Source: a virus. Taken from it: DNA of 64,000 nt. This document shows positions 23,766 to 39,479 of this stretch, in pieces; position 1 is the stretch's first letter, and the number at the start of each line of letters is the position of its first letter. The stretch covers positions 98,912-162,911 of IMG/VR virus record IMGVR_UViG_3300037205_000062; one strand, written 5' to 3'. The notes beneath the pieces are model-generated. The model searched no databases, was not told where the DNA came from, and was given only the letters and a program-made list of their open reading frames with translations. A program made the position numbers and the translations under genes.

Positions 23766-23933
23766 ATGAAAGTAAATTATATAGTTTCGCAATTGATTTC
23801 CCAAAAATGGGAATGCGCTACTATGCGCCCTAGTCTCTTTACAAAAGGTAATAGAGTTGCAATTTTAGATAGTATATAAGGTGGGAAAAGTTAAAGTTTC
23901 ATAAGTAACCCACCAAAAAATGGTGGGTTTTTT
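23766..23933 (+). promoter_or_regulatory. Putative leader-peptide attenuator (37-aa ORF, antiterminator, terminator)
   Basis: ORF 23766-23879; GGTGGG 23880-23885 complementary to CCCACC of terminator 23907-23933. Confidence 0.5.
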
Positions 23934-23964
23934 GTTTTAGACTTGGTTTTAAGTAAAAAAGTAG

Positions 23965-23993
23965 TTGACAAAGAAAAAAGTAGATGTTAGATT
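23965..23993 (+). promoter_or_regulatory. Sigma-70-type promoter for tRNA array
   Basis: TTGACA-N17-TAGATT. Confidence 0.6.
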
Positions 23994-24161: not shown

Positions 24162-24235
24162 GCGGTATTAGCACAAAAGTAGTGCATTTGCTTGCCAAGC
24201 AAGATAAGTCGGAGCATTACCGACATACCGCTCCA
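24162..24235 (+). tRNA. tRNA-Gly(GCC)
   Basis: Cloverleaf, U73, CCA; T-loop AGCATTA. Confidence 0.9.
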
Positions 24236-24240
24236 TTTTC

Positions 24241-24578
24241 GTGACTGAATTAAAACGATACTGTTATCGTTAAAGTTTTAAGCAGGTGAAGAATCTGTTT
24301 AAGTTGCCATGAAATCTTAGTAAATAAGGTAGTCAGAAACTTAGATTGGCCAATCGAAGTCTATGATGTAAGCTATTACTTATAGAACATAACGGATAGC
24401 TTTTTGCTGCGACGGCGGCGAGTGACTGAAATAAAATTGAAAAGATGTAATGCTTGGGCGTAGAAAGGAATCGCCCCGATTTAATTTATCTTTAGACGAG
24501 ATAGGCAAATGTCCTATTTACGAAAAGTGCAGGGAAAGCTACCTAGAAAGCTTGACATGATGGAGAGACATCTTTTCA
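24241..24578 (+). ncRNA. One or two unknown structured RNAs
   Basis: Dense hairpins; TGAAAAGATGT/ACATCTTTTCA closes 24438-24578. Confidence 0.5.
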
Positions 24579-24579
24579 T

Positions 24580-24654
24580 TGTAAGGTATCATAACAGTAA
24601 TGAATTTGCCTGTTAAGCAAAATTATGCAGGGGCGGAACCTGCCCTTACAGCCA
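24580..24654 (+). tRNA. tRNA-Asn(GTT)
   Basis: U1-A72, G73, CCA; T-loop GGCGGAA. Confidence 0.9.
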
Positions 24655-24773
24655 AATCATAAAGATAGTTATCCCTCTTATTTATAAGATTACTCGAAAA
24701 CGAGAAACAAAATAGGTGATGCTTGAGTGGGATTAAAATGGATAATATAGATTAATTTCTGTATTGTTCACTA

Positions 24774-24863
24774 TGCTGCGTGAAGGAAAATAGCCTTGTC
24801 GCCCTCATAAGGCGAATACTGAAAATGCGTATAAGTGGATAAAGACCCGCCGTTCAGCAACCA
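24774..24863 (+). tRNA. Atypical tRNA(CAT) with long variable region and bulged acceptor
   Basis: TGCTG/CAGCA-ACCA; TCGCC-CTCATAA-GGCGA. Confidence 0.65.
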
Positions 24864-24926
24864 TTTAGATAATCCTTGTGCCTTAATAACTTATAGAAAA
24901 ATCGGCAACGGCAAGAATTAAAAAAC

Positions 24927-24998
24927 ACACCCATGTTTAAGTAAACAATTTCGTCTCCAAAACGAAAAATCAAGGAGCGTTACCCTGTGGGTGTGCCA
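24927..24998 (+). tRNA. tRNA-Trp(CCA), small D-loop
   Basis: ACACCCA/TGGGTGT-G-CCA; CTCCAAA loop. Confidence 0.85.
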
Positions 24999-25005
24999 TT
25001 AATTT

Positions 25006-25083
25006 ATATGCGCTAAGTTCGTTTGAACCTTTTAACTTAAATGTTAAATTAGCCTAGACGTTAAACTCGTCTTGCGTATTCCA
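25006..25083 (+). ncRNA. tRNA-like element, anticodon undefined (loop CTTAAATG)
   Basis: ATATGCG/TGCGTAT-T-CCA, T-arm AGACG/CGTCT, two small hairpins. Confidence 0.55.
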
Positions 25084-25087
25084 TTTT

Positions 25088-25161
25088 ACCAAACTCCGAA
25101 AAGCAGTTCTAAGAGAACCACTTAGAGGTTCATCCGATGGTTCGGGATGCGGCTGTTTGGT
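25088..25161 (+). ncRNA. Three-way junction RNA with potential kissing loops
   Basis: ACCAAAC/GTTTGGT; complementary loops GAACCA and TGGTTC. Confidence 0.55.
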
Positions 25162-25177
25162 GATTAATTTAGAAAAT

Positions 25178-25268
25178 GGTCGGTGTCCTCATTGCGAATC
25201 TGTAAAATTCGTCCTTACAACAAAAATGAGAAGTTAGGTCAATGGAGCGTTACCATCACTGACTACCA
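25178..25268 (+). tRNA. Rewired tRNA-Tyr(GTA): D-loop-like segment 3' of anticodon arm
   Basis: Acceptor, A73-CCA, T-arm and CTGTAAA loop intact; CTCATT/AATGAG encloses anticodon arm. Confidence 0.7.
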
Positions 25269-25322
25269 TGTAATTAAAAATATTATAACAATCAGTAAAA
25301 TCTTTTGCCTAATTTATCTAAT

Positions 25323-25410
25323 GGAAGTCGTAAGTATCAGAGTTGATACGACGCACTTGAAATGCGTATGTGCCTACGGGCATGGGGGGCAGAACCTCAC
25401 ACTTCCGCCA
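25323..25410 (+). tRNA. tRNA-Ser(TGA)
   Basis: GGAAG acceptor (one bulge), long variable arm, G73-CCA. Confidence 0.85.
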
Positions 25411-25413
25411 TTT

Positions 25414-25614
25414 ATGACATTAAAAGAAGAAAATCAATGGTTTACTAATCATAAAAACCTTTGTAAATATAGTAGAAAACCAGAAAAAATTGACGAATCT
25501 GTTGCATGTGATTATTGTGGCACAGAAAATACTTATCCTTGGTTAGTTTGTGAAAATCCAAATTGCTATGAAGTTGTAGCATTAGAAAAACAAAGAAGAA
25601 AAAATAATTTCTGA
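25414..25614 (+). CDS. Small zinc-finger protein
   Basis: MTLKEE...CDYC...CENPNC; the upstream part of the tracked ORF is tRNA. Confidence 0.5.
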   Translation: MTLKEENQWFTNHKNLCKYSRKPEKIDESVACDYCGTENTYPWLVCENPNCYEVVALEKQRRKNNF

Positions 25615-25720
25615 CAGGCGGTAAATAAAGGGGTAAAAACATCATAGGTTTAGGCTATTTAGATAGTCAGAATCCTTCCAATTATTTAGGAAGTCCTTGA
25701 AAAATAGCCATTAATTTATT

Positions 25721-25796
25721 GGGGGTGTGGCTCGACAAGCAAGGCACCACGTTTGCAACGTGTTTTATGCAGGAGCGATACCTGTCACCTCCACCA
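25721..25796 (+). tRNA. tRNA-Ala(TGC)
   Basis: G3:U70, ACCA. Confidence 0.9.
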
Positions 25797-25798
25797 TT

Positions 25799-25910
25799 TT
25801 TGATAAGATTTGACGCGTGGACTACTTCGTAAGATGATAAAGTCCGAAGCTGGAAACGGCGAGAAGCCTGTTAAAACCAAAAGAGAGATACTTTTGTGTC
25901 CCTTATCAAA
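25799..25910 (+). ncRNA. Unknown structured RNA
   Basis: TTTGATAAG/CTTATCAAA closing stem; GGACT/AGTCC; GCTG-GAAA-CGGC; CAAAAG/CTTTTG. Confidence 0.5.
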
Positions 25911-25918
25911 TTTTTAAT

Positions 25919-25992
25919 TCCCGTTTCGTATAGAAGCATTACCTGCGCCTTTGGAGCGTAAGAAGGTGGAGCGTTACCATCAACGGGAGCCA
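25919..25992 (+). tRNA. tRNA-Gln(TTG)
   Basis: U1-A72, CTTTGGA loop, CCA. Confidence 0.88.
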
Positions 25993-26031
25993 AAAGATTT
26001 ATTTAGCATTAAAAATTTGTCAACATAAGTT

Positions 26032-26110
26032 GGGATATAGTCCGAAGTAGTCGAGGTACTTTCCTGTCACGAAAGAAATCTAACGGATGCGAGTTCCGTA
26101 TATCCCGCCA
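26032..26110 (+). tRNA. tRNA-Asp(GTC)
   Basis: CTGTCAC loop, G73-CCA. Confidence 0.88.
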
Positions 26111-26122
26111 ATTTAAATATAT

Positions 26123-26199
26123 GGACGTATAACTCAATTAGATAGAGTATCAGCTTGCGAAGCTGAAAGTTGAAAGTGCAAATCTTTCTACGTCCACCA
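26123..26199 (+). tRNA. tRNA-Arg(GCG)
   Basis: TCAGC-TTGCGAA-GCTGA. Confidence 0.88.
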
Positions 26200-26219
26200 A
26201 GGCTTTATTGCCTTTGTTT

Positions 26220-26270
26220 TTCAATTCATAAACAAAATTGAATGGTGGAGGCGGCGGGAAACCGTCGCCC
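26220..26270 (+). ncRNA. Two-hairpin element containing 18 nt antisense to a host-type tmRNA 3' end
   Basis: 26243-26260 is the reverse complement of TTCCCGCCGCCTCCACCA; caged in GGCGGCGG-GAAA-CCGTCGCC. Confidence 0.55.
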
Positions 26271-26286
26271 TTTAAATTTATTTAAT

Positions 26287-26362
26287 GGTATATATCCTCT
26301 ATGTAGTAAGAGCGCGGCCTGTGAAGCCGCCAAAACGAATGCAAGTTTCGTTATATACCCCA
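26287..26362 (+). tRNA. tRNA-His(GTG)
   Basis: G-1:C73, CTGTGAA loop. Confidence 0.9.
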
Positions 26363-26367
26363 ATTTT

Positions 26368-26451
26368 GGCCTCGTGACCTATTTGAGAATAGAACATCAT
26401 ACGGATTTAAACCCCGTGGTTTTGAAGGTGCAAGTCCTTTCGAGGCTACCA
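26368..26451 (+). tRNA. Atypical tRNA-Leu(TAA) without long variable arm
   Basis: TTTAAAC loop on ACGG/CCGT; acceptor identical to Ile(GAT); expanded D region. Confidence 0.6.
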
Positions 26452-26627
26452 TTTTTATTGATTATTTCTAAATAACTTAGAAAATTGGATTGATAAAAAC
26501 AAAATCTATGTTAGAAATTACAAGAAGTTTTGGATTAAAAAGTTCCAATTCAATTCGTAAATGGTGTCAATTATACCAAATAGATTATAAATCTCTTTCT
26601 CCATTTTCTTATAAGAAAAATTTTAAT

Positions 26628-26711
26628 GCGCTTATGTTGTAATAGAAGCCAAGCTGCGTTTAGACCGCAGTGGAGAAATCCGTGGGGGTGCAAGTCCCTC
26701 TAGGCGCACCA
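26628..26711 (+). tRNA. tRNA-Leu(TAG)
   Basis: Class II cloverleaf. Confidence 0.9.
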
Positions 26712-26713
26712 TT

Positions 26714-26827
26714 AGATTAGATCATATTAATGGTATTCGTAACGACAATAGACTAGAAAATCTTAGATTTTTATGTCCCAACTGCCATAGTCAAACACAA
26801 ACCTTCGGTTCTAAAAAAAGAATTTAA
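26714..26827 (+). pseudogene. HNH homing endonuclease remnant
   Basis: RLDHINGIRNDNRLENLRFLCPNCHSQTQTF, no start. Confidence 0.8.
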
Positions 26828-26828
26828 T

Positions 26829-26904
26829 GGCCCGTAGTAACAACAGCATGTTTGCCTCCTTTACACGGAGAATCGAGCAAGGGCAGCACTTGCACGGGCT
26901 ACCA
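26829..26904 (+). tRNA. tRNA-Val(TAC)
   Basis: TTTACAC loop, ACCA. Confidence 0.85.
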
Positions 26905-26949
26905 TTTTAATCTTGACATTACAATAAGAATCCACTAATATAGTTATAT

Positions 26950-27026
26950 CGGAATGTAGCGTAGGCTGGTAACGCGTCTGCTTTGGGAGCAGAAGATCGT
27001 GAGTCCGAATCTCACCATTCCGACCA
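26950..27026 (+). tRNA. tRNA-Pro(TGG)
   Basis: C1-G72, GG D-loop; TTGACA promoter just upstream. Confidence 0.92.
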
Positions 27027-27281
27027 TGTATGTTTGAAAAGTATATTACTCATATTTTTGAGAATAATGAGGAAGCAGAAAATGAATCAGCAAAAATTAT
27101 TCATTCAACAGCTAGTAGTATTAGAGGATGGGAACAGTATCAATCTTTTTTAAAAGATAAAAAAGAAAACGATACATTAGTTTGGTTTGATTATAGTTAT
27201 CCAATGGCTTCCAGAAAAGGATTGGGTATTCTAAGAAACGGTAAAATAATTTCTCATTGTATTTTTATAATGAGTTGATAC

Positions 27282-27370
27282 GGCTTCAAGATGTAAAGTG
27301 CATGGGGGGACTTATAATCCCTATAATCGGCAGATTGCCGTTCTGGACGGTGCAATTCCGTATGAAGCTA
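27282..27370 (+). tRNA. tRNA-Ile(TAT) with long variable arm, CCA not encoded
   Basis: GGGGA-CTTATAA-TCCCT; GGCA-GAT-TGCC arm. Confidence 0.75.
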
Positions 27371-27384
27371 CTAATGGTTTTAAT

Positions 27385-27460
27385 GGCCTCGTAACTCAAT
27401 TAGCAGAGTGTTCACCTGATTAGTGAAATGTTGGGGGTGCAAGTCCCTTCGAGGCTACCA
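27385..27460 (+). tRNA. tRNA-Ile(GAT), U37
   Basis: TTCAC-CTGATTA-GTGAA. Confidence 0.88.
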
Positions 27461-27475
27461 TTAAATATTTTTAAT

Positions 27476-27613
27476 ATGGACGAAACGATTACTATTTCCA
27501 AAGAAGAATATGAGGAACTTTTAGAAGATGCTAAATTCATGCGTGCATTAGAAGCCGCAGGAGTAGATAATTGGGAAGGATACGAATACGCCCAAGATTT
27601 ATTGGGAAAATAA
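27476..27613 (+). CDS. Small phage protein with GVDNWEGY motif
   Basis: MDETITISKEEY...ALEAAGVDNWEGY. Confidence 0.65.
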   Translation: MDETITISKEEYEELLEDAKFMRALEAAGVDNWEGYEYAQDLLGK

Positions 27614-27619
27614 TTTAAT

Positions 27620-27695
27620 GTTGCCGAATACAAAGAGACGAGTAAGTAGTCCTTCAAACTACTCCTAGCAGGTGCGAGTCCTGTCGGCAATACCA
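27620..27695 (+). tRNA. tRNA-Glu(TTC), C33
   Basis: GTAGT-CCTTCAA-ACTAC. Confidence 0.8.
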
Positions 27696-27700
27696 TTTAT

Positions 27701-27775
27701 GCATATGTAACTCAGAGGCAGAGTATTGCACTTCCAATGCAAAGGTCGAGATTTCAAAATTCTCCATATGCTCCA
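27701..27775 (+). tRNA. tRNA-Gly(TCC), canonical elbow
   Basis: GG D-loop, TTC T-loop. Confidence 0.92.
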
Positions 27776-27876
27776 ATTTCCAAGACGGAATCGTTTCTGG
27801 CGTTGCCAGACTAGAAATAGCTAAGTTACAATGTTTCGGTTTTAAAGACAAAATAACTACACCTGTCCTTGGAAAT
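27776..27876 (+). ncRNA. Unknown structured RNA filling the Gly-Thr spacer
   Basis: ATTTCCAAG/CTTGGAAAT; TCTGGC/GCCAGA; AGTTA/TAACT. Confidence 0.5.
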
Positions 27877-27880
27877 ATTT

Positions 27881-27955
27881 GCTTCGTAAGCATAAAAAGT
27901 GATGCACTTGATTTGTATCCAAGATAAGCCAGAGCGTTACTGGCACGAAGCTCCA
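27881..27955 (+). tRNA. tRNA-Thr(TGT)
   Basis: Cloverleaf, CCA. Confidence 0.88.
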
Positions 27956-28032
27956 ATTTTTTTAGTTTTAAAAAAACAATTAATTTTCAAATAATACTTG
28001 ACACAATTTTAAATATTTGTTAATCTTTAAAT

Positions 28033-28470
28033 ATGACTAAAGTATCTATTGAAGCTGTTTTGGAGGGTTTGAAGCGGGCGGGAGTAGCAGCCAAAGAAGT
28101 TGGAGTAACATTGAATTATTTGGAAAAGGTTGCTCAAGAAGAACAAGCTCAAAAGGACGCTGAAAAGCTTCCGACTCAAAAAAATGAATATGGTGTTATT
28201 TTATTTGATGTAGATGGAGTAATATCTGGAAAAGATTTTTCAGCAGTTGTTTACCAAATTCCGCAGGGTGATGACCATGGTTTAGTTTTGGGCAAAATTT
28301 CGGAATCTATACGAGAACAAATGGCAGCAGCAAAACGTAAAAAATTTACAATTGATACACTTGGCGCGGCAATTCAAAGCTTAAAGCGTAAGTTTATTAA
28401 AGATAAAAATGTTAATTTGAAGACTAAAAATCCCGTGAGAGTATTGATAAGTAATAATAAATTAGTTTAA
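28033..28470 (+). CDS. Hypothetical protein
   Basis: ORF behind TTGACA promoter. Confidence 0.55.
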   Translation: MTKVSIEAVLEGLKRAGVAAKEVGVTLNYLEKVAQEEQAQKDAEKLPTQKNEYGVILFDVDGVISGKDFSAVVYQIPQGDDHGLVLGKISESIREQMAAAKRKKFTIDTLGAAIQSLKRKFIKDKNVNLKTKNPVRVLISNNKLV

Positions 28471-28505
28471 TATGCAAACATGAAGATAGAAGAATAATAA
28501 TTTAA

Positions 28506-28582
28506 GCGTTCGTAGCTAAAATAGCCAAAGCATTCGGCTTTTAACCGAAATAGTGTGGGCGCAAGTCCCACCGAGCGCACCA
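28506..28582 (+). tRNA. tRNA-Lys(TTT)
   Basis: CTTTTAA loop. Confidence 0.9.
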
Positions 28583-28604
28583 TTTTGTTAAAAGTTTTTA
28601 ATTT

Positions 28605-28678
28605 GCGCTACAAGCATTAAAATGATGCAAAAGGTTCTTACCCTTTAGAACACGGCGTATTACCGTGGTGGCGCACCA
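28605..28678 (+). tRNA. tRNA-Lys(CTT)
   Basis: TTCTTAC loop; T-loop CGTATTA. Confidence 0.85.
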
Positions 28679-28851
28679 ATCTAATTTAGTAACCTCACCA
28701 GCTATCGCGCTTGGTCAAGAAAAAATAATACTTGTGGTGTCGCAAGGAGGCGAAGTAATTTTATGGAAATAAAAACAATAGACAATTTAATTATTGATAC
28801 TCATAAAGAAAACTATATTAACGCAGAAATGATTGAGTTAATGGAAAAATC

Positions 28852-29151
28852 ATGAAAATTAAAACTATCAATGGAGAGACTGTAGATACTGTTAAATTGG
28901 CAGATTTGAAATCTCAATTTATTGAAACAATGGAATCAAATGCCATAGTAGATTTTTCAAAGAAATTTGGTGCGTCATTTTTTTTATTTGGAAGATGTCA
29001 AGATGAAGGTTGGGTAAAATTTAATATACCTAATGAAAAAGAATTCAATTTTTTATTAATGGCGATAAATGAATACGTTGATACACAATCTGGCGGTAAA
29101 TATCATTTGGAAATGGTTCCGAATAATATTGAGCCAACGGAAGAAATATGA
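28852..29151 (+). CDS. Hypothetical protein, paralog of 20235-20561
   Basis: INGETVDTVKLAD...SGGK. Confidence 0.55.
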   Translation: MKIKTINGETVDTVKLADLKSQFIETMESNAIVDFSKKFGASFFLFGRCQDEGWVKFNIPNEKEFNFLLMAINEYVDTQSGGKYHLEMVPNNIEPTEEI

Positions 29152-29379
29152 AATTTTATGTTAAAGCAATTGGTCCGAATAGATATTCTGGTGGAAGTTG
29201 TAATTGGCTATTAATAAGAGAAATAAAAAGAGAAAATGATAGTTTAGTTATAAAAATTAAAACTAAATGGGGTATTAAATATATTTCTTGTAGTTTAGAT
29301 ATGGTAACTCCAAATTTAATTTTTAAGAATGAACTAAATGGATTTGAAAATTTTAAAAATATTTGCGATAAATTTAAAT

Positions 29380-29455
29380 GACTACTAAACTAATCAAGTG
29401 AAAGTGCAATTCTGAAAAAATTGAAAGTCGTGAGCGTTACACGAAGTAGTCACCA
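29380..29455 (+). tRNA. tRNA-Phe(GAA)
   Basis: CAATT-CTGAAAA-AATTG. Confidence 0.85.
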
Positions 29456-29459
29456 GATT

Positions 29460-29552
29460 GGAAGATACACGAATAGTTAGGTTTTCGTAGAAATTTGCTA
29501 AATTTCCGTTCCCGAAAGGGGACTGTCGGGGCGGCACCGACATCTTCCGCCA
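29460..29552 (+). tRNA. tRNA-Ser(GCT)
   Basis: Long variable arm, G73-CCA. Confidence 0.9.
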
Positions 29553-29639
29553 ATAAACAAAAATGAAATATGATTATCAAAATCAAATTTAATTTAAAAG
29601 ATAAAGTGTTAATCAAAGAACGTAAGTGTAATAATCTAC

Positions 29640-30371
29640 ATGGCTCAATGTCGTCAATGTAAAGCGAAACTTAATGCTCATGTAAATTATTGGCATCAGG
29701 AATTGACTCCTACCGATAATCAAAATAGTAGAGAGGATATTTCTAAAGCTTTACCTAGTTGGGCTAGTGAAATGGCCGCATTTTGTAGCGCCAAATGTCT
29801 TTCAAGTTATCTTCAAGGTCAAGGTCAATCTGTAGCCAAATTAGATGGTACGCCTTCTGGGACTGGTATTGTTGATCTTTTGCGCGAACCTTTTAAATAT
29901 ACTAATATAACAAAACAAGAATTGGATAGAAGAGGTTTTAATGCTCTTCAAAATAAAAAAGTAGTTAATGATATAACGGAAGATAGAAAAATAGTCAATC
30001 AAACCTATGACAAAAAAGGCGCAAAAAATGATGGAAATAAGGGGGATTTAAGAAGTCAAGTAGGTTTAGCTACGCCAGAAGAAGACGCCAGCCAAAAACC
30101 AGTTTTTGATAAATTAAAACAACTTAAGGATAAAGAAAATATGGAAACTCAAGCAAAAACAACAAAAACTTGTGATAATTGTAAATGCGTTCTTGATGCT
30201 AAAGAAGATAAAGGGGAAATGATTAAGGCTACACTAAACGACCATTCAACACAAAAAAATAAGCAATATGATCTTTGCAGCGAGGAGTGTCTTCGTCAAA
30301 TGTTAAACGGAAGAAGTAAAAAGAAAAAATCTAAAGCCAGTATTATTGAATTAGATATGTCTATCGAATAA
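29640..30371 (+). CDS. Protein with two TRASH/MYM-like Cys zinc-binding units
   Basis: CRQC...FCSAKC and CDNC...LCSEEC; GTGTAAT promoter. Confidence 0.6.
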   Translation: MAQCRQCKAKLNAHVNYWHQELTPTDNQNSREDISKALPSWASEMAAFCSAKCLSSYLQGQGQSVAKLDGTPSGTGIVDLLREPFKYTNITKQELDRRGFNALQNKKVVNDITEDRKIVNQTYDKKGAKNDGNKGDLRSQVGLATPEEDASQKPVFDKLKQLKDKENMETQAKTTKTCDNCKCVLDAKEDKGEMIKATLNDHSTQKNKQYDLCSEECLRQMLNGRSKKKKSKASIIELDMSIE

Positions 30372-30419
30372 AATTATAAAAATATCTATTTTTTTGTGTA
30401 ATTACTTTTATAATAATTT

Positions 30420-30994
30420 ATGAATACTTCAAATGCTAAACATTGCGTAGCTTGTGATGAATGCGGGGCTAGTCTTGGTGAACTTTATCCTAATGACCAT
30501 AATAATATCTCTGTACAATTGAGTGATATGGGTAAACATCATGCTGGTGATAGCGAAACTGCTTACCATAACCCAGAAAAATCTCTTAGTTCTAAAAAAA
30601 CATTTCATTTTTGTGATGAAAGTTGTATGGCTTCCAATCTAAATAAGCGCGCCAAAGCTAAAGCTAAGATGTCTAAGATGTCTAAGGCGAATGTTGTTGA
30701 TTATCAAGGTAATATAGAAGTAGATATGACTGATTACCTAAAAAAAAAGAGTTTGAGTTAAGCGAAGCGGCCTATATATCAACTCATGAAAGAAGTAAGT
30801 TGGGTGAGGAACATTTTTTAGACAAAAAGCGTCGTTCTTTTCCCATTAGACCAGGTCATGAATGTACTGATTTGAACGCTGCACTTCATAGAATTGGAAC
30901 ATATAAAGGTGAATTAAGTCACGAAGAACTTCATAGTAAAATTTTAAGTCGTATGAAATCTCATGGCTGCCCTTTACCCAAAAGCGATAAATAA
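30420..30994 (+). CDS. TRASH-like zinc protein probably joined by -1 frameshift (A9G at 30740-30749) to downstream domain
   Basis: Frame 0 ends at 30761; -1 frame open from the A-run to 30994 with no ATG before the domain. Confidence 0.5.
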
Positions 30995-31009
30995 ACATTT
31001 TATAAAATT

Positions 31010-31312
31010 ATGAAAAAAACTCTATTTACTACGGTATCTTTAATGGCGTTAACTGTTTGTGCTTTCGGACAAACAAATAACATCACGCCCGTGATTGTAA
31101 CCGACTTTCCATCTGCTATTAGCGCCGCATTTCATTTTGTTAACATAAACGTTAATCCAACCTTACTAATTTTAGTTCTACACTTGTTAGGTAAATATTA
31201 TACTAATTATCATCTTGCTGATAAATTTTCTCACGAAATTAATTGGTTTGGTAAACTTGCTAGTGTAGTTGCTTTAATTCCTATTAAACAAATATCCCCA
31301 TCATCTAAGTAA
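31010..31312 (+). CDS. Secreted/membrane protein
   Basis: Signal peptide MKKTLF...AFG, hydrophobic segments. Confidence 0.55.
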   Translation: MKKTLFTTVSLMALTVCAFGQTNNITPVIVTDFPSAISAAFHFVNINVNPTLLILVLHLLGKYYTNYHLADKFSHEINWFGKLASVVALIPIKQISPSSK

Positions 31313-31600
31313 TTGTATATATGTCATATACTACTGGTACATTACCATATTTAGAAAGTAGAATGCATCAGCTATCTCAAAATAGTGGAGATTTAAATAG
31401 TTATGCGTTAGAAGCTCAAAATAATTATACATTAACTCCATCGCATGCTGATAAATTAAACAAAGAATTTCATAAAATAATGTTATCAGTTCATAATGTA
31501 GTCGAAACTGGAAAACACTTTTAAAATTTAAGCCATCCGAAAGGGTGGTGACGATTACATAAACGATAATCCTCAAGGGTTGTCGCTTTTTCTCATTGTT

Positions 31601-31669
31601 GCCAGTGACGTTAAGAACGACCAAATCTTCATAAGATTTAGGGAGACGGGGCAGAACCGACCATTGGCA
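31601..31669 (+). tRNA. Degenerate tRNA(CAT) (Met or Ile2), no CCA
   Basis: GCCAGTG/CATTGGC, AAATC-TTCATAA-GATTT, 3-nt D-loop. Confidence 0.6.
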
Positions 31670-31673
31670 GTAT

Positions 31674-31768
31674 TTTACATAGTGACAAACGAAGATGCTA
31701 CCTACCATTATTGTAAGTCGTTTAAGTACGTTGATATTGGTTAGAACGGTGTGCAATTTCTATGTAAA
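31674..31768 (+). ncRNA. Unknown structured RNA
   Basis: TTTACATAG/CTATGTAAA closing stem; AAACGA/TCGTTT. Confidence 0.4.
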
Positions 31769-31772
31769 TAAT

Positions 31773-31845
31773 GGGGTTATAGAATAATAGTTAATTCGCT
31801 AATTTCTCGAATTAGTTATCGTGAGTGCGATTCTCCGTAACCCTT
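31773..31845 (+). tRNA. tRNA-Glu(CTC), copy 1 (bulged T-stem, no CCA)
   Basis: CTAAT-TTCTCGA-ATTAG. Confidence 0.7.
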
Positions 31846-31847
31846 CT

Positions 31848-31932
31848 TGCGCAATGGCGTAATTACAAGCCGCGCCAGTTTCAAACTCTGGTGTTGAAAA
31901 ACGTGTGGGTGGAAGTCCCTCTTGCGCAACCA
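31848..31932 (+). tRNA. tRNA-Leu(CAA), copy 1
   Basis: Class II; C19-G56. Confidence 0.8.
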
Positions 31933-32243
31933 ATTTCTTCTTGACAATATTCTAAAGATAGCATAATATTTGTTATGCCTTACATTAAACCAGAAAATAG
32001 AAACAAATATACAAGTTCAATCAATAATTTAGTTAATTTGTTGACTAATGATGGTTGCGAAGCTGACGTAGGAGAAATTAACTACGTTATCTCTTCTGTT
32101 ATTTGGAAGTTATTTAAAAATAAACGTAGATATAAAACTGGTAATGATTTAATGGGCGTTTTGGAATGCGTTAAACAGGAATTTTATAGACGGCAATTGG
32201 CCGAACTAGAAAATGAAAAAATTAAAGAAAATGGAGATATTTT

Positions 32244-32762
32244 ATGAAGGTAATTAATCTTTTCGCAGAAGCGGGAGCGGGTAAATCTACTACTGCTGCT
32301 GGTCTATTTTTCTTAATGAAGTGTGCGGGCTACCATGTTGAATTAGCAACTGAATATGCTAAAGATTTAGTACATGAAGAACGTACAAAAACTTTTAATG
32401 ATCAGTTGTATATTACTGCAAAACAAAATCACAAACTATTTTTATTAAATAATAAATATGATTATGCCATTACTGATTCTCCATTGTTATTGGGCTTAGT
32501 TTATAGACAAGATGATTGTGTATCATATTTTGATGATTTAGTATTTCAATTATTTAATTCATATGAGAATGTAAATATTCTTTTAACTCGATCAAAACCT
32601 TATAAACAAATTGGCAGAAATCAAACAGAAGAGGAATCTAAAAAAATCAGAGAAAATATACTTCAAATGTTAAATTATTATAATTTGGATTATTATTCAG
32701 TTGTAGCTGACGATAAAGCGCCACATGAAATTTTTTACAGATTAAAACTTGACAAATTTTAA
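32244..32762 (+). CDS. P-loop kinase/ATPase (AAA_28, NadR-like)
   Basis: INLFAEAGAGKST, EYAK, ITDSP, GRNQ. Confidence 0.75.
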   Translation: MKVINLFAEAGAGKSTTAAGLFFLMKCAGYHVELATEYAKDLVHEERTKTFNDQLYITAKQNHKLFLLNNKYDYAITDSPLLLGLVYRQDDCVSYFDDLVFQLFNSYENVNILLTRSKPYKQIGRNQTEEESKKIRENILQMLNYYNLDYYSVVADDKAPHEIFYRLKLDKF

Positions 32763-33048
32763 AACCTATTTTACATTTGATTATTAATAAATAATTTATG
32801 AATTTTGATCAATGGTATTTCAATTTTGATGAAACTAACAGGGTGGCAACGGCGCAAGATGGTTGGAATGCCTGTAAAAAAGAAATTATTAAAATAATAG
32901 CCAAACACGAAAAGGAGACTTATTGGATTACTTTAGATTGGAAAGAACAAGATTGGATTAAAAAAATAAAAGAGTTGTGAAAAAAGATTCTTTTTATTAC
33001 GATGGTAGATAAGTTTACTTAACTGGCGAAAGCCAAGAAAGGAGAATA

Positions 33049-33453
33049 ATGGAAAAATATTATGAATGTATTGGAATAGTAAATTATTCTGATAAAGATG
33101 GTTGGATAACTATGACCCTTCCCCAATCTTTATCTAATTATTATTCTTGGTGGGTTAAGAGATTTATTTGGAAAGGTGTTTCTACTCCGCTATACGGTTG
33201 TCATTGCACCATTTTACCAGCAAAACACAACGGAGATTTTCGCAAACATTCAGCGTGGAAAAAACATCAAGGAGAAAAAGTAAAAGTAATATATGAGTCT
33301 AAAATATATACTGATAATGATTGGTTTTTTATGGGGCGCTATTTTTGGTTGAGAATCCAAACAGATATTGTTGGGCAAATAAGAGGAGAATTTGGTTTGC
33401 CAAAAGAATTATATTGGCCGTTGCACGCTACTATTGGTTATTGTCAACAATGA
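33049..33453 (+). CDS. 2H phosphoesterase-like protein
   Basis: Two HxT motifs (HCTI, HATIG) about 75 aa apart. Confidence 0.6.
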   Translation: MEKYYECIGIVNYSDKDGWITMTLPQSLSNYYSWWVKRFIWKGVSTPLYGCHCTILPAKHNGDFRKHSAWKKHQGEKVKVIYESKIYTDNDWFFMGRYFWLRIQTDIVGQIRGEFGLPKELYWPLHATIGYCQQ

Positions 33454-33744
33454 TAAATTGTATATTTGTATTATGAAAGAAATTAAAATTCCCATGAATG
33501 ATTATATAGAAAGACAAAAAGATATAAATTTTCTGTTAAGCTTTTCGTGTGATATTATAGCAAGTTATTCTTTATTAAAAGATTATGATGTTAGACATGT
33601 GGCTTGGGCGATAGATAGATTATTTGGTTATAATCCATCGCTAGAAGAACAAAAAGAAATTTGTAAACCCAATAAAAATGTAAAAGTCCCCAAATATGAT
33701 TTACTGACAGAGGGTTATGACCCTAATAAATTGCCAAAATAAAT

Positions 33745-33831
33745 GCTTATATGGCGAAATAGAAAACGCATAACGTCGAGAGCGTTACACCCGTAAGGGG
33801 TTTGCAAGTGCAAGTCTTGCTATAAGCACCA
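33745..33831 (+). tRNA. tRNA-Leu(GAG), C33
   Basis: TAACG-TCGAGAG-CGTTA, long variable arm. Confidence 0.85.
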
Positions 33832-33880
33832 TTTGCAAAGAATGTTGGGAAAAAGATTTTAAAGATTTAGAATAAATATT

Positions 33881-33956
33881 GGGGTTATCGTCTAATTAGA
33901 TAGGACTAGAGTTTCTCGAACTTTGAATTTGGTTGCAAATACCAATAACCCCTCCA
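33881..33956 (+). tRNA. tRNA-Glu(CTC), copy 2
   Basis: AGAGT-TTCTCGA-ACTTT, CCA. Confidence 0.85.
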
Positions 33957-33959
33957 AAT

Positions 33960-34044
33960 AGCCAAATGGCGTAATTACAAGCCGCGCTAAACTCAAAATT
34001 TAGTGTCGAAAGACGTGAGAGTGGAAATCTCTCTTTGGCTACCA
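33960..34044 (+). tRNA. tRNA-Leu(CAA), copy 2
   Basis: CTAAA-CTCAAAA-TTTAG. Confidence 0.88.
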
Positions 34045-34049
34045 TTTAT

Positions 34050-34559
34050 ATGTCTTTTCAATCTGCTACCCCTCAAGGCCCAAATAATACTATGACAGAT
34101 GTTTGGATTACTCCTCAATGGATTATAGATAAAATTGGCGTATCTGACCTTGATCCTTGCGGATGGTTGCCAAATGGAACCCCTATAATTCAAACCGCTT
34201 ACAATTATTTTACAGAAAAAGATAATGGATTAATACAAGATTGGTCAAAATATAAAAGTGTTTTTGTTAATTTTCCTTATTCACAAAGTTATGAATGGCT
34301 TGAAAAATGTAAAATAGAATCAAATAAAGGATGCGAAATTATAGTTTTGTGTTTTGTCAGATCAGAGACTCGTGCTTGGCAACAAAATATTAAAAATGCC
34401 ACGGGTATTAATTTAATAAATAAAAGAATTAAATTTTTAACTCACGAAGGGATAGAAAAGGGAAATGGAAATTGCCCAAGTTGTTTGATAGCATGGGGAG
34501 AAAACTCCTTTAATAGAATTAAAAAAGTTGATGGGATTTATTTAAAACTTGACAAATAA
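34050..34559 (+). CDS. Phage DNA N6-adenine methyltransferase
   Basis: W.TP, DLDPC, DNGL..DW, VFVNFPYS, RSET..W. Confidence 0.8.
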   Translation: MSFQSATPQGPNNTMTDVWITPQWIIDKIGVSDLDPCGWLPNGTPIIQTAYNYFTEKDNGLIQDWSKYKSVFVNFPYSQSYEWLEKCKIESNKGCEIIVLCFVRSETRAWQQNIKNATGINLINKRIKFLTHEGIEKGNGNCPSCLIAWGENSFNRIKKVDGIYLKLDK

Positions 34560-34562
34560 TAA

Positions 34563-34832
34563 TTTGCTTCTAAAACAGCTATTAGAGATAGTATTAAATA
34601 TCCTTGGCGCGTAGATTGGAATAAAGAATTATCTATGAAAGTTATGCGTTATGCTTTAGACTATAAATTTAAAAAAGGTACAGATTGGTATAGAAAGTTA
34701 AAATTAACTGAAAATTGGGAAATAATAGAGTGGAATAATTGGCATGATGTTTGGTGGGGTAAAGATATTAAAACGCGTAAAGGCGAAAATCATCTTGGAA
34801 AGATATTAATGGAAATAAGAGATAAGACTTGA
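34563..34832 (+). pseudogene. N-terminally truncated NADAR-family gene
   Basis: R.DW...MKVM...L..KF, E.NNWHDVWWG, GENHLGKILMEIR. Confidence 0.65.
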
Positions 34833-35035
34833 ACGGCTTGATAATAATGAAAAAAATTCCAATTAAAGATTGTAATGGAAAAATGATTTATGAAGGTGAT
34901 TTAGTTGAAATAGACGGTAAAATTCACAAAGCTTTATTTTTTAATGAGAATGATTTTTGGTTCTATAAAGATGGCGCTGGATGGATTTATGACTTGGGAA
35001 AATATAAAATAAAATTATGGGGCAAGTCTTTATAA
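34829..35035 (+). CDS. YopX-like protein
   Basis: KDCNGKMIYEGD. Confidence 0.55.
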   Translation: MNGLIIMKKIPIKDCNGKMIYEGDLVEIDGKIHKALFFNENDFWFYKDGAGWIYDLGKYKIKLWGKSL

Positions 35036-35046
35036 ATTAAAAAATT

Positions 35047-35325
35047 ATGACAACCGTAGTGAATATTAAGAATGGTAATAAATATGATGTTTATTGTGGA
35101 CGAGGCAGTATATTTGGAAATCCATATGAAATAGGGAAAGATGGAACAAGAGAACAAGTCATAGAACGTTATAAAATTTGGTTTAATTTCTTATTAAAAG
35201 ATAAATTTTTTGTAAACGAATTATTAAAACTTAATGGTAGAACTTTGGGCTGTTTTTGCGTGCCACAAAAATGTCATTGTGAAATAATAAAGGAATGGCT
35301 TGACAATCCCAAAAACTTTAAATAG
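35047..35325 (+). CDS. DUF4326-family protein
   Basis: DVYCGRGSIFGNPY, LGCFC.P..CH. Confidence 0.8.
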   Translation: MTTVVNIKNGNKYDVYCGRGSIFGNPYEIGKDGTREQVIERYKIWFNFLLKDKFFVNELLKLNGRTLGCFCVPQKCHCEIIKEWLDNPKNFK

Positions 35326-35988
35326 TATATAAATATGACCTATGCTTTTAGAAAATGGTGATTATTATTGGCAGGGAAACGAGGAAGAATGCAATGATTG
35401 TCATGAAAAATATCCTATGATGTGGATGATAATGTGTGATTTTGGTATAATAAGATGTTTTGATTGTTGGCAAAAAAACGAAGAGTATGAAAGAAAAAAA
35501 ATTTAAAATACTTAAGTATTATAAAACTTTTCGAGAGTGGTCAAACGAAGGATATAGTATAAACAAGGGAAGCAAGGCGACGTGGGTAAATAATATACCA
35601 AAATTCAGTCGCTCGCAGGTTACTAAAAGATTTAGTAATAGTAGACGTTATTCTATTTGGGAAAATTATGATCCGCGAGATGGTGATGCGGATTTTGAAA
35701 ATGGTTATAGTGACGAAGAAATGGGTTTTGATATAAATGATTTTGGAGATAATTAAAATATGAAAAAGAAATTTTATAAAACAGTTCCATGCGATTGTAA
35801 TGAATGTAAATCGTCTCGTTCTATTGGTGGAAATTCTGGTACTAAAAAAATAGAAGTTAAACCACATTCTTGTTTCGAGAATTCGCGAGTTACCAAATGC
35901 GATGGGGGAGCAAAAGATGAACGCACTTGTAATATATGTGGGAAAGTTTGGGAATGTTCTTGTAATTTTGATGATGATTTTGATTAAT

Positions 35989-36064
35989 GGTGTCGTGGTC
36001 GAGTAGCTAAGACAGCGGATTGCAAACCCGTTATTCCTTGGTGCAAATCCAAGCGATACCTCCA
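35989..36064 (+). tRNA. tRNA-Cys(GCA)
   Basis: U73-CCA. Confidence 0.9.
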
Positions 36065-36190
36065 TTTTAAGTACGATTTTATTAAATTGAATAGTGTAAG
36101 TATTATTGATGGATTGGCCCGCAATAATTACTTTCATAATAATAGCAACAATTTTAATTGGTTGGTCTATTTTTATTTTGAAATGATAAT

Positions 36191-36266
36191 GGGCATATAA
36201 CTCAAATAGATAGAGTCCTCCCTTCTAAGGAGCGAGATTCGGGTGCAATTCCTGATATGCCTACCA
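36191..36266 (+). tRNA. tRNA-Arg(TCT)
   Basis: CTTCTAA loop, AGATA D-loop. Confidence 0.88.
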
Positions 36267-36394
36267 TTTGTAACATGACACAAAAAGAAAAAAATGCTTT
36301 ATTAAAGATTGTAAAGGAACTGGAAAAACTTAAATAACGAGACAACTTTAATGTTGGTTTCACGCTATTAGCGTGAATGTGTAATAATTAGTGT

Positions 36395-36733
36395 ATGATT
36401 TCCTTAATCAAACACTATTATCACAAGTTAACTAAAAAAATTAGCGAGCCAAAACGTTCTGACAAATGGCCAACAGTTAGAAAACATCATTTAGAAAAAG
36501 AAGGTTGGTGTAAATTTTGTGGTGGGACAGAAGGTTTACAAGTACATCATTGCGAACCGTTTCATATTGATCCTGCAAAAGAATTAGACCCAACAAATTT
36601 AATTACATTATGTGAATTAATGGACAAAGAATGTCATTTACATATAGGACATTTAGGTAATTGGAAAAACTTTAATCCAAAAGTAAGAGAACAAGCTAAT
36701 TCTCCTAAAGTTGGGACGCCAGCTTCTAAATAA
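36395..36733 (+). CDS. HNH endonuclease
   Basis: CKFCG...VHH...NLITLC...CH; GTGTAAT promoter. Confidence 0.8.
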   Translation: MISLIKHYYHKLTKKISEPKRSDKWPTVRKHHLEKEGWCKFCGGTEGLQVHHCEPFHIDPAKELDPTNLITLCELMDKECHLHIGHLGNWKNFNPKVREQANSPKVGTPASK

Positions 36734-36743
36734 TTTATTATTT

Positions 36744-36820
36744 GTTCGTATATCGGTCTAGCTTCCTAAGCCTGATACCGTAGATAGATAAGGTGGGTGC
36801 AAATCCCTCTGCGAACTCCA
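36744..36820 (+). tRNA. Rewired tRNA-Arg(CCT): D-loop-like segment 3' of anticodon arm
   Basis: GTTCGTA/TGCGAAC-T-CCA; TTCCTAA loop; TAGATAGATA before T-arm. Confidence 0.65.
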
Positions 36821-36894
36821 TGCTCTATGGTGTAGTAGGAACACGTTTGACTCTGAATCAAATATCTTGGGTGCAAATCCTAATAGAGCAACCA
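36821..36894 (+). tRNA. tRNA-Gln(CTG)
   Basis: CTCTGAA loop, U1-A72. Confidence 0.9.
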
Positions 36895-36921
36895 AAATAG
36901 TTAATAGAAGATAGATTGTAT

Positions 36922-36995
36922 GCCTTGTTAGTTTAACAGAAAAACGTATCATCGGTAATGATAAAACGTAAGGGCAGCACTTACACTTGGCTCCA
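36922..36995 (+). tRNA. tRNA-Thr(GGT), C33, two U-U mismatches in acceptor
   Basis: TATCA-TCGGTAA-TGATA. Confidence 0.8.
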
Positions 36996-38134: not shown

Positions 38135-38143
38135 TATTATAAT

Positions 38144-39442: not shown

Positions 39443-39479
39443 CAAAGTATAAAATTTAATATATGTTTTTTTTAAAATC

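What the first reader, a model, noticed from the sequence alone, without database searches (positions are those of the whole stretch)
25178..25268. Topologically rewired tRNA-Tyr: D-loop relocated 3' of the anticodon arm
Seen order: acceptor 5' GGTCGGT(G), CTCATT, anticodon arm (GCGAAT-CTGTAAA-ATTCGT), 12-nt variable segment, AATGAG (pairs CTCATT), AAGTTAGGTC (compare Ser-GCT D-loop TAGTTAGGTT), T-arm, acceptor 3', A-CCA. No D hairpin precedes the anticodon. It is the only Tyr tRNA in an otherwise complete 20-aa set in this window. Inference: the D-stem strands are swapped (8/9 to 22, 43 to 10, 21 to 48), which could keep the L-shape and elbow with a non-cloverleaf connectivity that tRNA finders would miss.
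Basis: partly seen in the sequence, partly recalled or inferred. Interest (0 to 1): 0.9.

Follow-up and report, generated by a model that had tools for sequence, protein, structure and literature searches.

The report
Rewired, pseudoknotted phage tyrosine tRNA
This phage gene encodes a tyrosine tRNA that is not a cloverleaf: it has no D hairpin and rebuilds that helix by pairing with a strand placed behind the anticodon arm. The design is kept in more than a hundred phage and bacterial tRNA arrays, is missed by the tRNA finders I ran, and is absent from the papers I searched.

Summary
Window 25178-25268 (+) has an 8-bp acceptor stem, no D hairpin, a normal GUA anticodon arm, a 4-bp T stem with T-loop AGCGUUA, A73 and an encoded CCA. 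The 6 nt before the anticodon arm pair with 6 nt behind it.

- **Detection:** ARAGORN (default settings) and Rfam tRNA both miss the gene.
- **Family:** loop-motif scans that left all helices free found the same architecture in 112 viral contigs and 27 bacterial contigs, giving 85 distinct sequences.
- **Relocated helix:** it is fully paired in 78 of 85 sequences, with 37 different strand pairs and compensatory changes at 5 of 6 positions.
- **New here:** a second 3-5 bp helix crosses the first, so the fold is a pseudoknot.
- **Independent check:** a covariance model built without the window hits it at 78.5 bits (E about 5e-20).
- **Role:** it is the only Tyr(GUA) gene in a roughly 33-gene tRNA block. 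194 tRNAs in related bacterial arrays include no other Tyr.

The most likely reading is a working tRNA-Tyr charged by the host enzyme, but expression and charging are untested. I found no published description. This scan has reported the same class before, on other genomes.

The parts
25178..25185 (+). Acceptor stem, 5' strand (8 nt); pairs with 25257-25264
   Evidence: All 8 pairs are kept in the family, 7 with changes on both sides. The window has G-U at the first and fifth pairs.
25186..25187 (+). Two-nt linker (TC) from the acceptor to the relocated helix
   Evidence: The linker is always 2 nt in 85 sequences: CC 54, AT 19, TT 6, TC 5, AC 1.
25188..25193 (+). Strand X of the D-like helix. 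It occupies the place of D-stem residues 22-25 and runs straight into the anticodon stem.
   Evidence: It pairs with 25225-25230. Helix 2 is 98.4-99.3% paired, and 5 of 6 pairs show changes on both sides. It is fully paired in 78 of 85 sequences on a fixed-offset parse.
25194..25212 (+). Anticodon arm: 5-bp stem plus a G-U closing pair, 7-nt loop 25200-25206, anticodon GTA at 25202-25204
   Evidence: All five stem pairs vary, four with changes on both sides. The loop is the usual bacterial tRNA-Tyr loop (C32 U33 G U A A37 A38).
25213..25215 (+). Variable stem, 5' strand (CCT); pairs with AGG at 25236-25238
   Evidence: A 3-5 bp helix is present in 85 of 85 sequences with 17 different strand pairs. 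Cognate partners pair better than non-cognate ones, 0 of 10000 permutations.
25216..25224 (+). A-rich joiner (9 nt) from the variable stem back to strand X'
   Evidence: Length is 3-10 nt and the segment is A-rich across the family. Its role is inferred.
25225..25230 (+). Strand X' of the D-like helix, in the place of D-stem residues 10-13, located 3' of the anticodon arm
   Evidence: Complementary to 25188-25193; covariation as for strand X.
25231..25235 (+). AAGT(T): relocated D-loop equivalent, probable docking partner of the T-loop
   Evidence: GAAGT was fixed by the scan pattern, so its invariance is by construction. Independent support: ordinary cloverleaf tRNAs with T-loop AGCRTTA carry AAGT in the D-loop in 31 of 78 cases, against 89 of 1513 for canonical T-loops.
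25236..25238 (+). Variable stem, 3' strand (AGG). It crosses the X/X' helix, which makes the fold a pseudoknot.
25239..25241 (+). Three-nt linker to the T stem
   Evidence: 1-3 nt across the family.
25242..25256 (+). T arm: 4-bp stem (25242-25245 with 25253-25256) and 7-nt loop AGCGTTA (25246-25252)
   Evidence: The same loop type occurs in Gly, Trp, Gln, Thr and Phe tRNAs of this phage.
25257..25264 (+). Acceptor stem, 3' strand
25265..25268 (+). Discriminator A73 and encoded CCA end
   Evidence: A73 in 85 of 85 sequences and CCA encoded in 80 of 85. Neither was fixed by the scan pattern.

Best explanation
The gene encodes a working elongator tRNA-Tyr(GUA) of a conserved non-cloverleaf architecture. 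An 8-bp acceptor stem stacks on a 4-bp T stem, keeping the usual 12-bp branch. Two nucleotides lead directly into a 6-nt strand that continues into the anticodon stem. That strand pairs with a 6-nt strand lying in the loop of a short (3-5 bp) variable stem behind the anticodon arm. This rebuilds a 6-bp D-like helix as a pseudoknot. The AAGU that follows the relocated strand sits at the elbow end of the helix and probably docks on the unusual T-loop AGCGUUA, giving an L shape with tRNA-Sec-like dimensions (6 + 5-6 bp anticodon branch). Shown here: the helices, their covariation, the family and its distribution, and that this is the only Tyr gene of the block. Inferred: transcription with the tRNA block, end processing, charging by the host's bacterial-type TyrRS through GUA and A73, and reading of UAU/UAC in phage mRNAs. 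Why the wiring was fixed is open. My guess is that a duplication-deletion moved the module 'A-rich joiner, D 5' strand, AAGU' into the variable loop, and that the altered core may help the phage tRNA escape enzymes that recognise normal tRNA-Tyr.
For: - The anatomy is read directly from the sequence, and single-sequence MFE folds of the window and of relatives recover the acceptor, X/X' and anticodon helices.
- Scans fixed only three loop motifs and left all helices free. They found 112 viral and 27 bacterial stretches, giving 85 distinct sequences.
- X/X' is fully paired in 78 of 85 sequences, with 37 different strand pairs.
- On model-guided alignments the whole structure is 97-99% paired, against 75-77% for shuffled and 32-58% for slid partners. 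X/X' has compensatory changes at 5 of 6 pairs.
- The variable stem is present in 85 of 85 sequences with 17 different strand pairs.
- A leave-one-out model scores 78.5 bits, E 5e-20.
- tRNA hallmarks not fixed by the scan are kept: A73 in 85 of 85, CCA in 80 of 85, G1-C72 in 81 of 84, and 8+4 = 12 bp.
- It is the only GUA tRNA in the 163-kb phage record, beside genes for the other 19 amino acids.
- 194 ARAGORN tRNAs in 22 bacterial arrays that carry this gene include no Tyr.
- Tyr makes up 4.8% of codons in the phage's long ORFs.
- An anticodon-free scan returned almost only these Tyr genes.
Against: - There are no expression, processing, charging or decoding data.
- The T-loop lacks the near-universal T54-Psi55, and there is no G18G19, so the elbow contact is inferred.
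- The window's own copy has G-U, not G-C, at pair 1-72.
- The single-sequence fold is no better than shuffles (z -0.94).
- Whether the two crossing helices form at the same time has not been shown.
- The invariance of the anticodon loop, GAAGT and the T-loop is by construction of the scans.
- Related sequences inflate the shuffle statistics.
- No phage TyrRS was found, so charging depends on an unidentified host enzyme.
Confidence: 0.75

Rival explanations
1. It is a conserved tRNA-like RNA that does not decode. It could be a decoy or sponge for a tRNA-Tyr-directed host nuclease or modification enzyme, or a regulator that mimics tRNA-Tyr, as plant-virus tRNA-like structures mimic tRNAs through pseudoknots.
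For: The core is non-canonical and the elbow unusual. Anti-defence-like genes (Macro, NADAR, NMNAT-like, NAMPT) lie just after the tRNA block. Bacterial genomes that carry the arrays also keep an ordinary tRNA-Tyr.
Against: It fills the single empty slot (Tyr) of a set that otherwise covers 19 amino acids, here and in 22 bacterial arrays. It keeps the 12-bp acceptor/T branch, A73, CCA and a regular 7-nt anticodon loop. A decoy would not need all of these.
Confidence: 0.13
2. It is a precursor that is rearranged (cut and religated, or spliced) into an ordinary cloverleaf tRNA-Tyr, as happens with circularly permuted or intron-bearing tRNA genes.
For: The D 5' strand and D-loop motif exist but lie in the wrong order, which superficially recalls permuted tRNA genes (one search lists that literature).
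Against: The 5' and 3' ends are already ordinary acceptor ends with CCA. Removing any single segment does not give a cloverleaf. I saw no bulge-helix-bulge motif. No RNA ligase family was found in the phage record. The variable stem that crosses the helix covaries, which argues that the unrearranged RNA folds as such.
Confidence: 0.04
3. It is a decaying pseudogene or rearranged tRNA remnant with no function.
For: The block holds other degenerate-looking tRNA-like sequences, for example 36744-36820 and 25006-25083.
Against: There are 85 distinct sequences in more than 130 loci from several bacterial phyla and many phages. All helices are kept by compensatory changes. This is the signature of purifying selection on the fold.
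Confidence: 0.03

Closest known systems
Bacterial and phage class II tRNA-Tyr(GUA), ordinary cloverleaf (Rfam RF00005)
   Same: The anticodon loop is the same (C U G U A A A), and A73, G1-C72 (in most members), the CCA end and extra material in the variable region are shared. Phage arrays also hold cloverleaf Tyr genes with the same AGCRUUA T-loop.
   Different: There is no D hairpin. The D-like helix is made between the 5' strand and the variable-arm loop, which forms a pseudoknot. The branch is 8/4 rather than 7/5, and RF00005 does not score it.
tRNA-Sec and (8/4) allo-tRNAs, including (8/4) tRNA-Ser and tRNA-His of phages (Mukai et al. 2016, PMC5389517; review PMC7609411)
   Same: It has an 8-bp acceptor plus a 4-bp T stem, a 6-bp D-type helix followed by a 4-nt motif, a long variable region, and occurs in phage tRNA clusters. 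One viral Tyr gene, L096:1272-1360, has exactly this form with ordinary connectivity.
   Different: Those tRNAs are still cloverleaves with a D hairpin. None is reported for Tyr, and none has the D strands in swapped order.
D-armless mitochondrial tRNAs and the engineered mini HisT (PMC11551756)
   Same: No hairpin lies between the acceptor and the anticodon arm. That work shows bacterial EF-Tu and ribosomes can use a tRNA without a D arm.
   Different: Here the D helix is not lost but rebuilt from a distant strand, and the carriers are phages and bacteria. That paper states that all known bacterial tRNAs are cloverleaves.
Circularly permuted tRNA genes of red and green algae and archaea (PMC3978253, PMC3218864)
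   Same: The order of tRNA segments in the gene differs from the cloverleaf order.
   Different: In those genes the whole 3' half precedes the 5' half and processing restores a normal tRNA. Here the ends are normal and only the D 5' strand and loop are displaced, apparently for good.
Pseudoknotted tRNA-like structures of plant viruses (my own knowledge, not checked here)
   Same: They are viral RNAs that use a pseudoknot to present a tRNA-like shape. Some are tyrosylated.
   Different: Their pseudoknot is in the acceptor arm, they are the 3' ends of genomes, and they do not decode.

Membership tests
tRNA, cloverleaf model (Rfam RF00005) | Acceptor stem closed by a discriminator base and a CCA end | tested here: met
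   8 bp, 25178-25185 with 25257-25264, then A and CCA. Kept across 84 relatives.
tRNA, cloverleaf model (Rfam RF00005) | D hairpin between the acceptor and the anticodon arm | tested here: not met
   Only 9 nt lie between the two arms and they form no hairpin. The same holds in 85 of 85 relatives.
tRNA, cloverleaf model (Rfam RF00005) | Anticodon arm with a 5-bp stem and a 7-nt loop carrying U33 and purine 37 | tested here: met
   25195-25211, loop at 25200-25206. All five stem pairs vary in the family and stay 99.5% paired.
tRNA, cloverleaf model (Rfam RF00005) | 5-bp T stem with a T-loop of the UUCRANY type | tested here: not met
   The stem is 4 bp and the loop is AGCGUUA.
tRNA, cloverleaf model (Rfam RF00005) | Score at or above the family's gathering threshold | tested here: not met
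   No RF00005 match at this place even at E<=10. ARAGORN default misses it too.
tRNA (function) | Aminoacylation and decoding on the ribosome | not testable with these tools
   No RNA or biochemical data.
Bacterial tRNA-Tyr identity | Anticodon GUA, discriminator A73, G1-C72, long variable arm | tested here: inconclusive
   GUA and A73 are met. Pair 1-72 is G-U in the window and G-C in 81 of 84 relatives. The variable arm is a 3-bp stem whose loop is engaged in the D-like helix. These identity rules come from established knowledge of E. coli and T. thermophilus TyrRS and were not tested here.
(8/4) allo-tRNA / tRNA-Sec-like tRNAs | 8-bp acceptor stem plus 4-bp T stem | tested here: met
   The eighth pair is GC in 78 and UA in 5 sequences. 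The T stem is 4 bp, and no unpaired base lies between the T stem and the 8-bp acceptor stem.
(8/4) allo-tRNA / tRNA-Sec-like tRNAs | 6-bp D stem closed by a 4-nt D-loop as one hairpin | tested here: not met
   A 6-bp helix and the 4-nt AAGU are present, but the two strands are 31 nt apart and in swapped order.
Circularly permuted tRNA genes | 3' half upstream of 5' half, mature ends inside the gene, processing through a bulge-helix-bulge motif | tested here: not met
   The ends are ordinary acceptor ends with CCA. I saw no such motif by eye.
Rewired pseudoknotted tRNA-Tyr class (defined in this scan, unpublished) | 8/4 branch, 2-nt linker, 6-bp X/X' helix around the anticodon arm, crossing variable stem, AAGU, T-loop AGCGUUA, A73 | tested here: met
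   All features are present. The leave-one-out model R2 scores 78.5 bits over the full length.

The most novel reading that the evidence does not exclude
Phages and mobile tRNA arrays of several bacterial phyla use a natural elongator tRNA that is not a cloverleaf. It is a tyrosine tRNA whose D helix is assembled as a pseudoknot from a strand moved behind the anticodon arm, together with a re-invented D-loop/T-loop elbow (AAGU with AGCGUUA). It is charged and decoded by ordinary bacterial machinery, and was possibly selected because the altered core escapes enzymes that attack or mark normal tRNA-Tyr.
Probability: 0.65. Interest if true: 0.9.

Novelty: new variant of a known kind. Interest (0 to 1): 0.85.

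Why it matters
The cloverleaf is treated as universal outside mitochondria. [quoted passage not shown]

- **A counter-example:** a conserved, covariation-supported tRNA with different strand connectivity would contradict that view. It would show that the L shape can be reached through another topology.
- **Annotation:** it would explain why tRNA-Tyr looks 'missing' from many phage tRNA sets.
- **Engineering:** it would give a natural scaffold for orthogonal tRNA design.
- **Recognition:** it offers a test of what TyrRS, RNase P, EF-Tu and tRNA-directed defence nucleases actually read in the tRNA core.
- **Gene finders:** current tRNA finders and Rfam need a dedicated model for it.

Tried and rejected
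- **Isolate phages:** BLAST of the region and of a relative's gene against 50,697 isolate phage records gave no match. The ribonucleotide reductase gave only distant matches (<40% identity). The phage has no cultured relative and its host remains unknown.
- **Phage enzymes:** no TyrRS family (PF00579), T4-type or Rnl2-type RNA ligase, or CCA-adding enzyme family was found in the 163-kb record, which is 79% complete. The PF09511 control rang nowhere, so that result is uninformative.
- **The 143-aa ORF at 25183-25614:** it overlaps the Tyr and Ser genes, has no PHROG family, and I treat it as spurious.
- **Plain MAFFT alignment (A1):** it put the relocated strand in two registers, so I replaced it with a model-guided alignment and a fixed-offset parse.
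- **Housekeeping tRNA of Verrucomicrobiota:** rejected. Five carrier genomes also have an ordinary Tyr gene, and none of 150 other genomes of the phylum had a hit (strict filters).
- **The same wiring with other anticodons:** none was found in 0.68 Mb of array loci at E<=1e-8, nor by an anticodon-free scan.
- **GG of AGG as G18G19:** rejected, because those bases pair in the variable stem.

Full report
**What is there.**
Window 25178-25268 (+) reads in this order:
- an 8-nt acceptor strand and a 2-nt linker;
- a 6-nt strand X (25188-25193);
- a regular anticodon arm (25194-25212) with the 7-nt loop typical of bacterial tRNA-Tyr and anticodon GTA;
- CCT, a 9-nt A-rich joiner, and a 6-nt strand X' (25225-25230) that is fully complementary to X;
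- AAGT plus T, AGG, and a 3-nt linker;
- a 4-bp T stem with loop AGCGTTA, the 8-nt acceptor partner, A, and CCA.

No hairpin lies between the acceptor and the anticodon arm. RNAfold recovers the 8-bp acceptor, X/X' and the anticodon arm, but the energy is no better than shuffles (z -0.94). The sequence alone therefore does not settle it.

**Gene finders.**
ARAGORN with default settings reports 13 tRNAs in the window and skips this one. Rfam's tRNA model finds 15 tRNAs between 22000 and 39000 and nothing here, even at E<=10. ARAGORN's mitochondrial mode offers only a shifted 63-nt fold around the same anticodon.

The window is the last 64 kb of a 162,911-bp IMG/VR virus record with about 30% G+C. 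It has no close relative among isolate phages.

**A family.**
I scanned viral contigs for the Tyr anticodon loop followed at 10-40 nt by the T-loop core.

A more specific scan fixed the anticodon loop, GAAGT and the T-loop core, with free spacers. It found 112 viral stretches and 27 stretches in bacterial genomes, giving 85 distinct sequences in 138 loci. These patterns fixed only three loop motifs. None of the helices, the discriminator or the CCA was specified, so their state is an independent test. The reverse also holds: the invariance of those three motifs is by construction.

**Covariation.**
I took X as the 6 nt that end 6 nt before the loop and X' as the 6 nt before AAGT.
- X/X' is fully paired in 78 of 85 sequences, 5 of 6 pairs in six sequences and 4 of 6 in one, with 37 different strand pairs.
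- On alignments fitted to a covariance model (R1), the X/X' helix is 99.3% paired in 23 sequences and 98.4% in 84.
- Changes on both sides occur at 5 of its 6 pairs. One pair, for example, reads UA 32, AU 26, CG 19.
- The whole structure is 97-99% paired, against 75-77% after shuffling partners and 32-58% after sliding them.
- These alignments lean toward the model and the sequences are related. The fixed-offset parse and the slid controls argue that the signal is real.

**A second helix.**
In the window this is CCT with AGG.
- It is present in 85 of 85 sequences, with 17 different strand pairs.
- Cognate partners pair better than non-cognate ones (3.78 against 2.66 bp; 0 of 10000 permutations).
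- Because it opens before X' and closes after it, the two helices cross. The fold is an H-type pseudoknot with the anticodon arm inserted in its first loop.

**Independent score.**
Model R2, built from the 84 relatives without the window, hits 25178-25268 over its full length at 78.5 bits, E 5.1e-20. The next hit in the window is the Phe tRNA at 22 bits. It is the only hit in the whole phage record.

**The fold, as inferred.**
- The eighth acceptor pair covaries (GC 78, UA 5) and the T stem has 4 pairs, so the branch is 8/4 = 12 bp, as in allo-tRNAs.
- X runs 5' to 3' into the anticodon stem, so it takes the place of D-stem residues 22-25. X' takes the place of residues 10-13 and is followed by AAGU, as a D-loop follows residue 13.
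- In a normal tRNA, residue 8 lies at the elbow end of the D stem. A 2-nt link from the acceptor to the elbow end of X is therefore geometrically natural. This rests on my knowledge of tRNA structure and was not computed.
- The stack of 6 + 5-6 bp matches the anticodon branch of tRNA-Sec.

**The elbow.**
- In this phage, T-loops of the AGCRUUA type also occur in the Gly-GCC, Trp, Gln-UUG, Thr-UGU and Phe tRNAs. Four of these five (all but Gln-UUG, which has AAGC) carry AAGT in an ordinary D-loop.
- Among 2024 distinct ARAGORN tRNAs in all fetched loci, AGCRTTA T-loops go with AAGT in 31 of 78 and with GG in only 8 of 78. Canonical T-loops go with AAGT in 89 of 1513 and with GG in 1406 of 1513.
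- Cloverleaf Tyr genes with AAGT D-loops and this T-loop exist.
- One viral gene, L096:1272-1360, has an 8/4 branch, an A-rich 8-nt linker, and a 6-bp D hairpin closed by AAGU, all in ordinary order.
- The rewired form looks like that gene with the module 'A-rich linker, D 5' strand, AAGU' moved into the variable loop. A tandem duplication followed by two deletions would do this. That is inference.

**Is it the Tyr tRNA?**
- With relaxed detection, the block at 24162-37228 holds about 33 tRNA genes for the other 19 amino acids and no other GUA gene.
- Tyr is 4.8% of codons in 76 long ORFs, and 91% of those codons are TAT.
- In 22 bacterial contigs that carry the rewired gene, it always sits in a dense tRNA array. 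ARAGORN finds 194 tRNAs there, and none is Tyr.
- A73 is present in 85 of 85 sequences, CCA in 80 of 85 and G1-C72 in 81 of 84. The window's own copy has G-U at 1-72.
- Each of 84 loci gave exactly one hit to the model.
- An anticodon-free scan returned 82 stretches. Of the 80 listed, 79 were the same Tyr genes and one (L250) is a short oddity. The wiring therefore appears specific to Tyr.

**Where it lives.**
Twenty of the 27 bacterial hits are Verrucomicrobiota MAGs, some on megabase contigs. The others are Lachnospiraceae, Bacteroidales, Bacilli, Crocinitomicaceae, Bifidobacteriaceae, Acidobacteriota and an unclassified bacterium.

Five Verrucomicrobiota carriers all have an ordinary tRNA-Tyr elsewhere. 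None of 150 other genomes of the phylum gave a hit, although strict filters were used. The gene therefore belongs to mobile or phage-derived tRNA arrays, not to the housekeeping set.

**Function and rivals.**
The simplest reading is a working tRNA-Tyr charged by the host's TyrRS. No phage TyrRS was found. I put this at about 0.75.
- A non-decoding mimic or decoy is possible (0.13). It does not explain why the RNA keeps every tRNA end feature and fills the one empty slot of the set.
- Processing into a cloverleaf (0.04) would need cutting and rejoining. No RNA ligase was found, and the crossing helix covaries.
- A pseudogene (0.03) is contradicted by the compensatory changes.

Why the rewiring was kept is unknown. 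Escape from tRNA-directed nucleases is a guess, prompted only by the many non-canonical elbows in this block and the anti-defence-like genes next to it.

**Literature and earlier notes.**
Five full-text searches and three papers read gave no description of a tRNA with this connectivity.
- Mukai et al. describe 8/4 Ser and His tRNAs in phages, but these are cloverleaves and none is Tyr.
- The 2020 review of non-canonical tRNAs mentions no pseudoknot or phage case.
- The 2024 mini-HisT paper states that all known bacterial tRNAs are cloverleaves.

After I had reached this reading, the scan's notebook showed that other agents had reported the same class on other genomes, with the same conclusion. 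It also holds first-reader notes on this phage's elbows and on a possible second rewired gene. These are not independent evidence.

**Limits.**
There are no RNA, charging or 3D data. tRNAscan-SE was not available. The host is unknown. The family census is limited by exact-motif scans, so relatives with other loop motifs were not sampled.

Noticed in passing
window 24162-37228: The phage's roughly 33 tRNA genes use at least four T-loop types: AGCRUUA, GGCRGMA, UGCRAnU and, in only two genes (Pro, Gly-UCC), a near-canonical loop. Most D-loops lack GG, and about half of the genes are missed by default ARAGORN and by Rfam. This looks like a block-wide remodelling of the D-loop/T-loop elbow.
   Followed up: partly
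window 25006-25083 (+): Between tRNA-Trp and the rewired Tyr lies a cloverleaf-like gene ending U-CCA. It has a 7-bp acceptor, a 4-bp D stem with a 4-nt loop, an anticodon stem with a 6- or 8-nt loop (low-threshold ARAGORN calls a 4-base anticodon, taaa) and T-loop UUAAACU. Its fold has z -2.8. It may be a frameshift- or stop-reading tRNA, or a remnant.
   Followed up: partly
window 36744-36820 (+): This is an Arg-CCU-like sequence with a 7-bp acceptor, U-CCA, T-loop UGCAAAU, no D hairpin, and an Arg-type D-loop motif after an irregular anticodon hairpin. The fold is no better than shuffles (z -0.38), the anticodon stem is poor, and model R2 does not hit it. I did not look for relatives.
   Followed up: partly
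window 37652-44595 (+): Right after the tRNA block lie Macro-domain, NADAR, cytidylyltransferase-like (NMNAT-type) and nicotinamide phosphoribosyltransferase genes. This set is suggestive of ADP-ribose reversal and NAD+ rebuilding against host defences.
   Followed up: no
L096:1272-1360 (+): This viral tRNA-Tyr has ordinary strand order but an 8/4 branch, an 8-nt A-rich linker, a 6-bp D stem closed by AAGU, and T-loop AGCGUUA. It is a possible ancestor-like form of the rewired class, and I saw only one example.
   Followed up: partly
L121-L147 (bacterial contigs): The tRNA arrays that carry the rewired Tyr also hold Leu tRNAs of only 75-77 nt, Ile-UAU genes of 92 nt, Thr genes of 86-87 nt and tRNAs with the stop-reading anticodon UUA (L124, L146). 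The arrays may contain further non-standard tRNAs.
   Followed up: no
L250:1405-1530 (-): This short tRNA-like gene has the same T arm, AAGT and an 8-bp acceptor, but no recognisable anticodon arm. It was the only new hit of the anticodon-free scan.
   Followed up: no
window 23907-23993 (+): A strong terminator-like hairpin (23907-23929) is followed by a TTGACA-17-TAGATT promoter-like site (23965-23993), about 170 nt before the first tRNA of the block. This is a possible start of the tRNA transcription unit, but it rests on consensus matches only.
   Followed up: no
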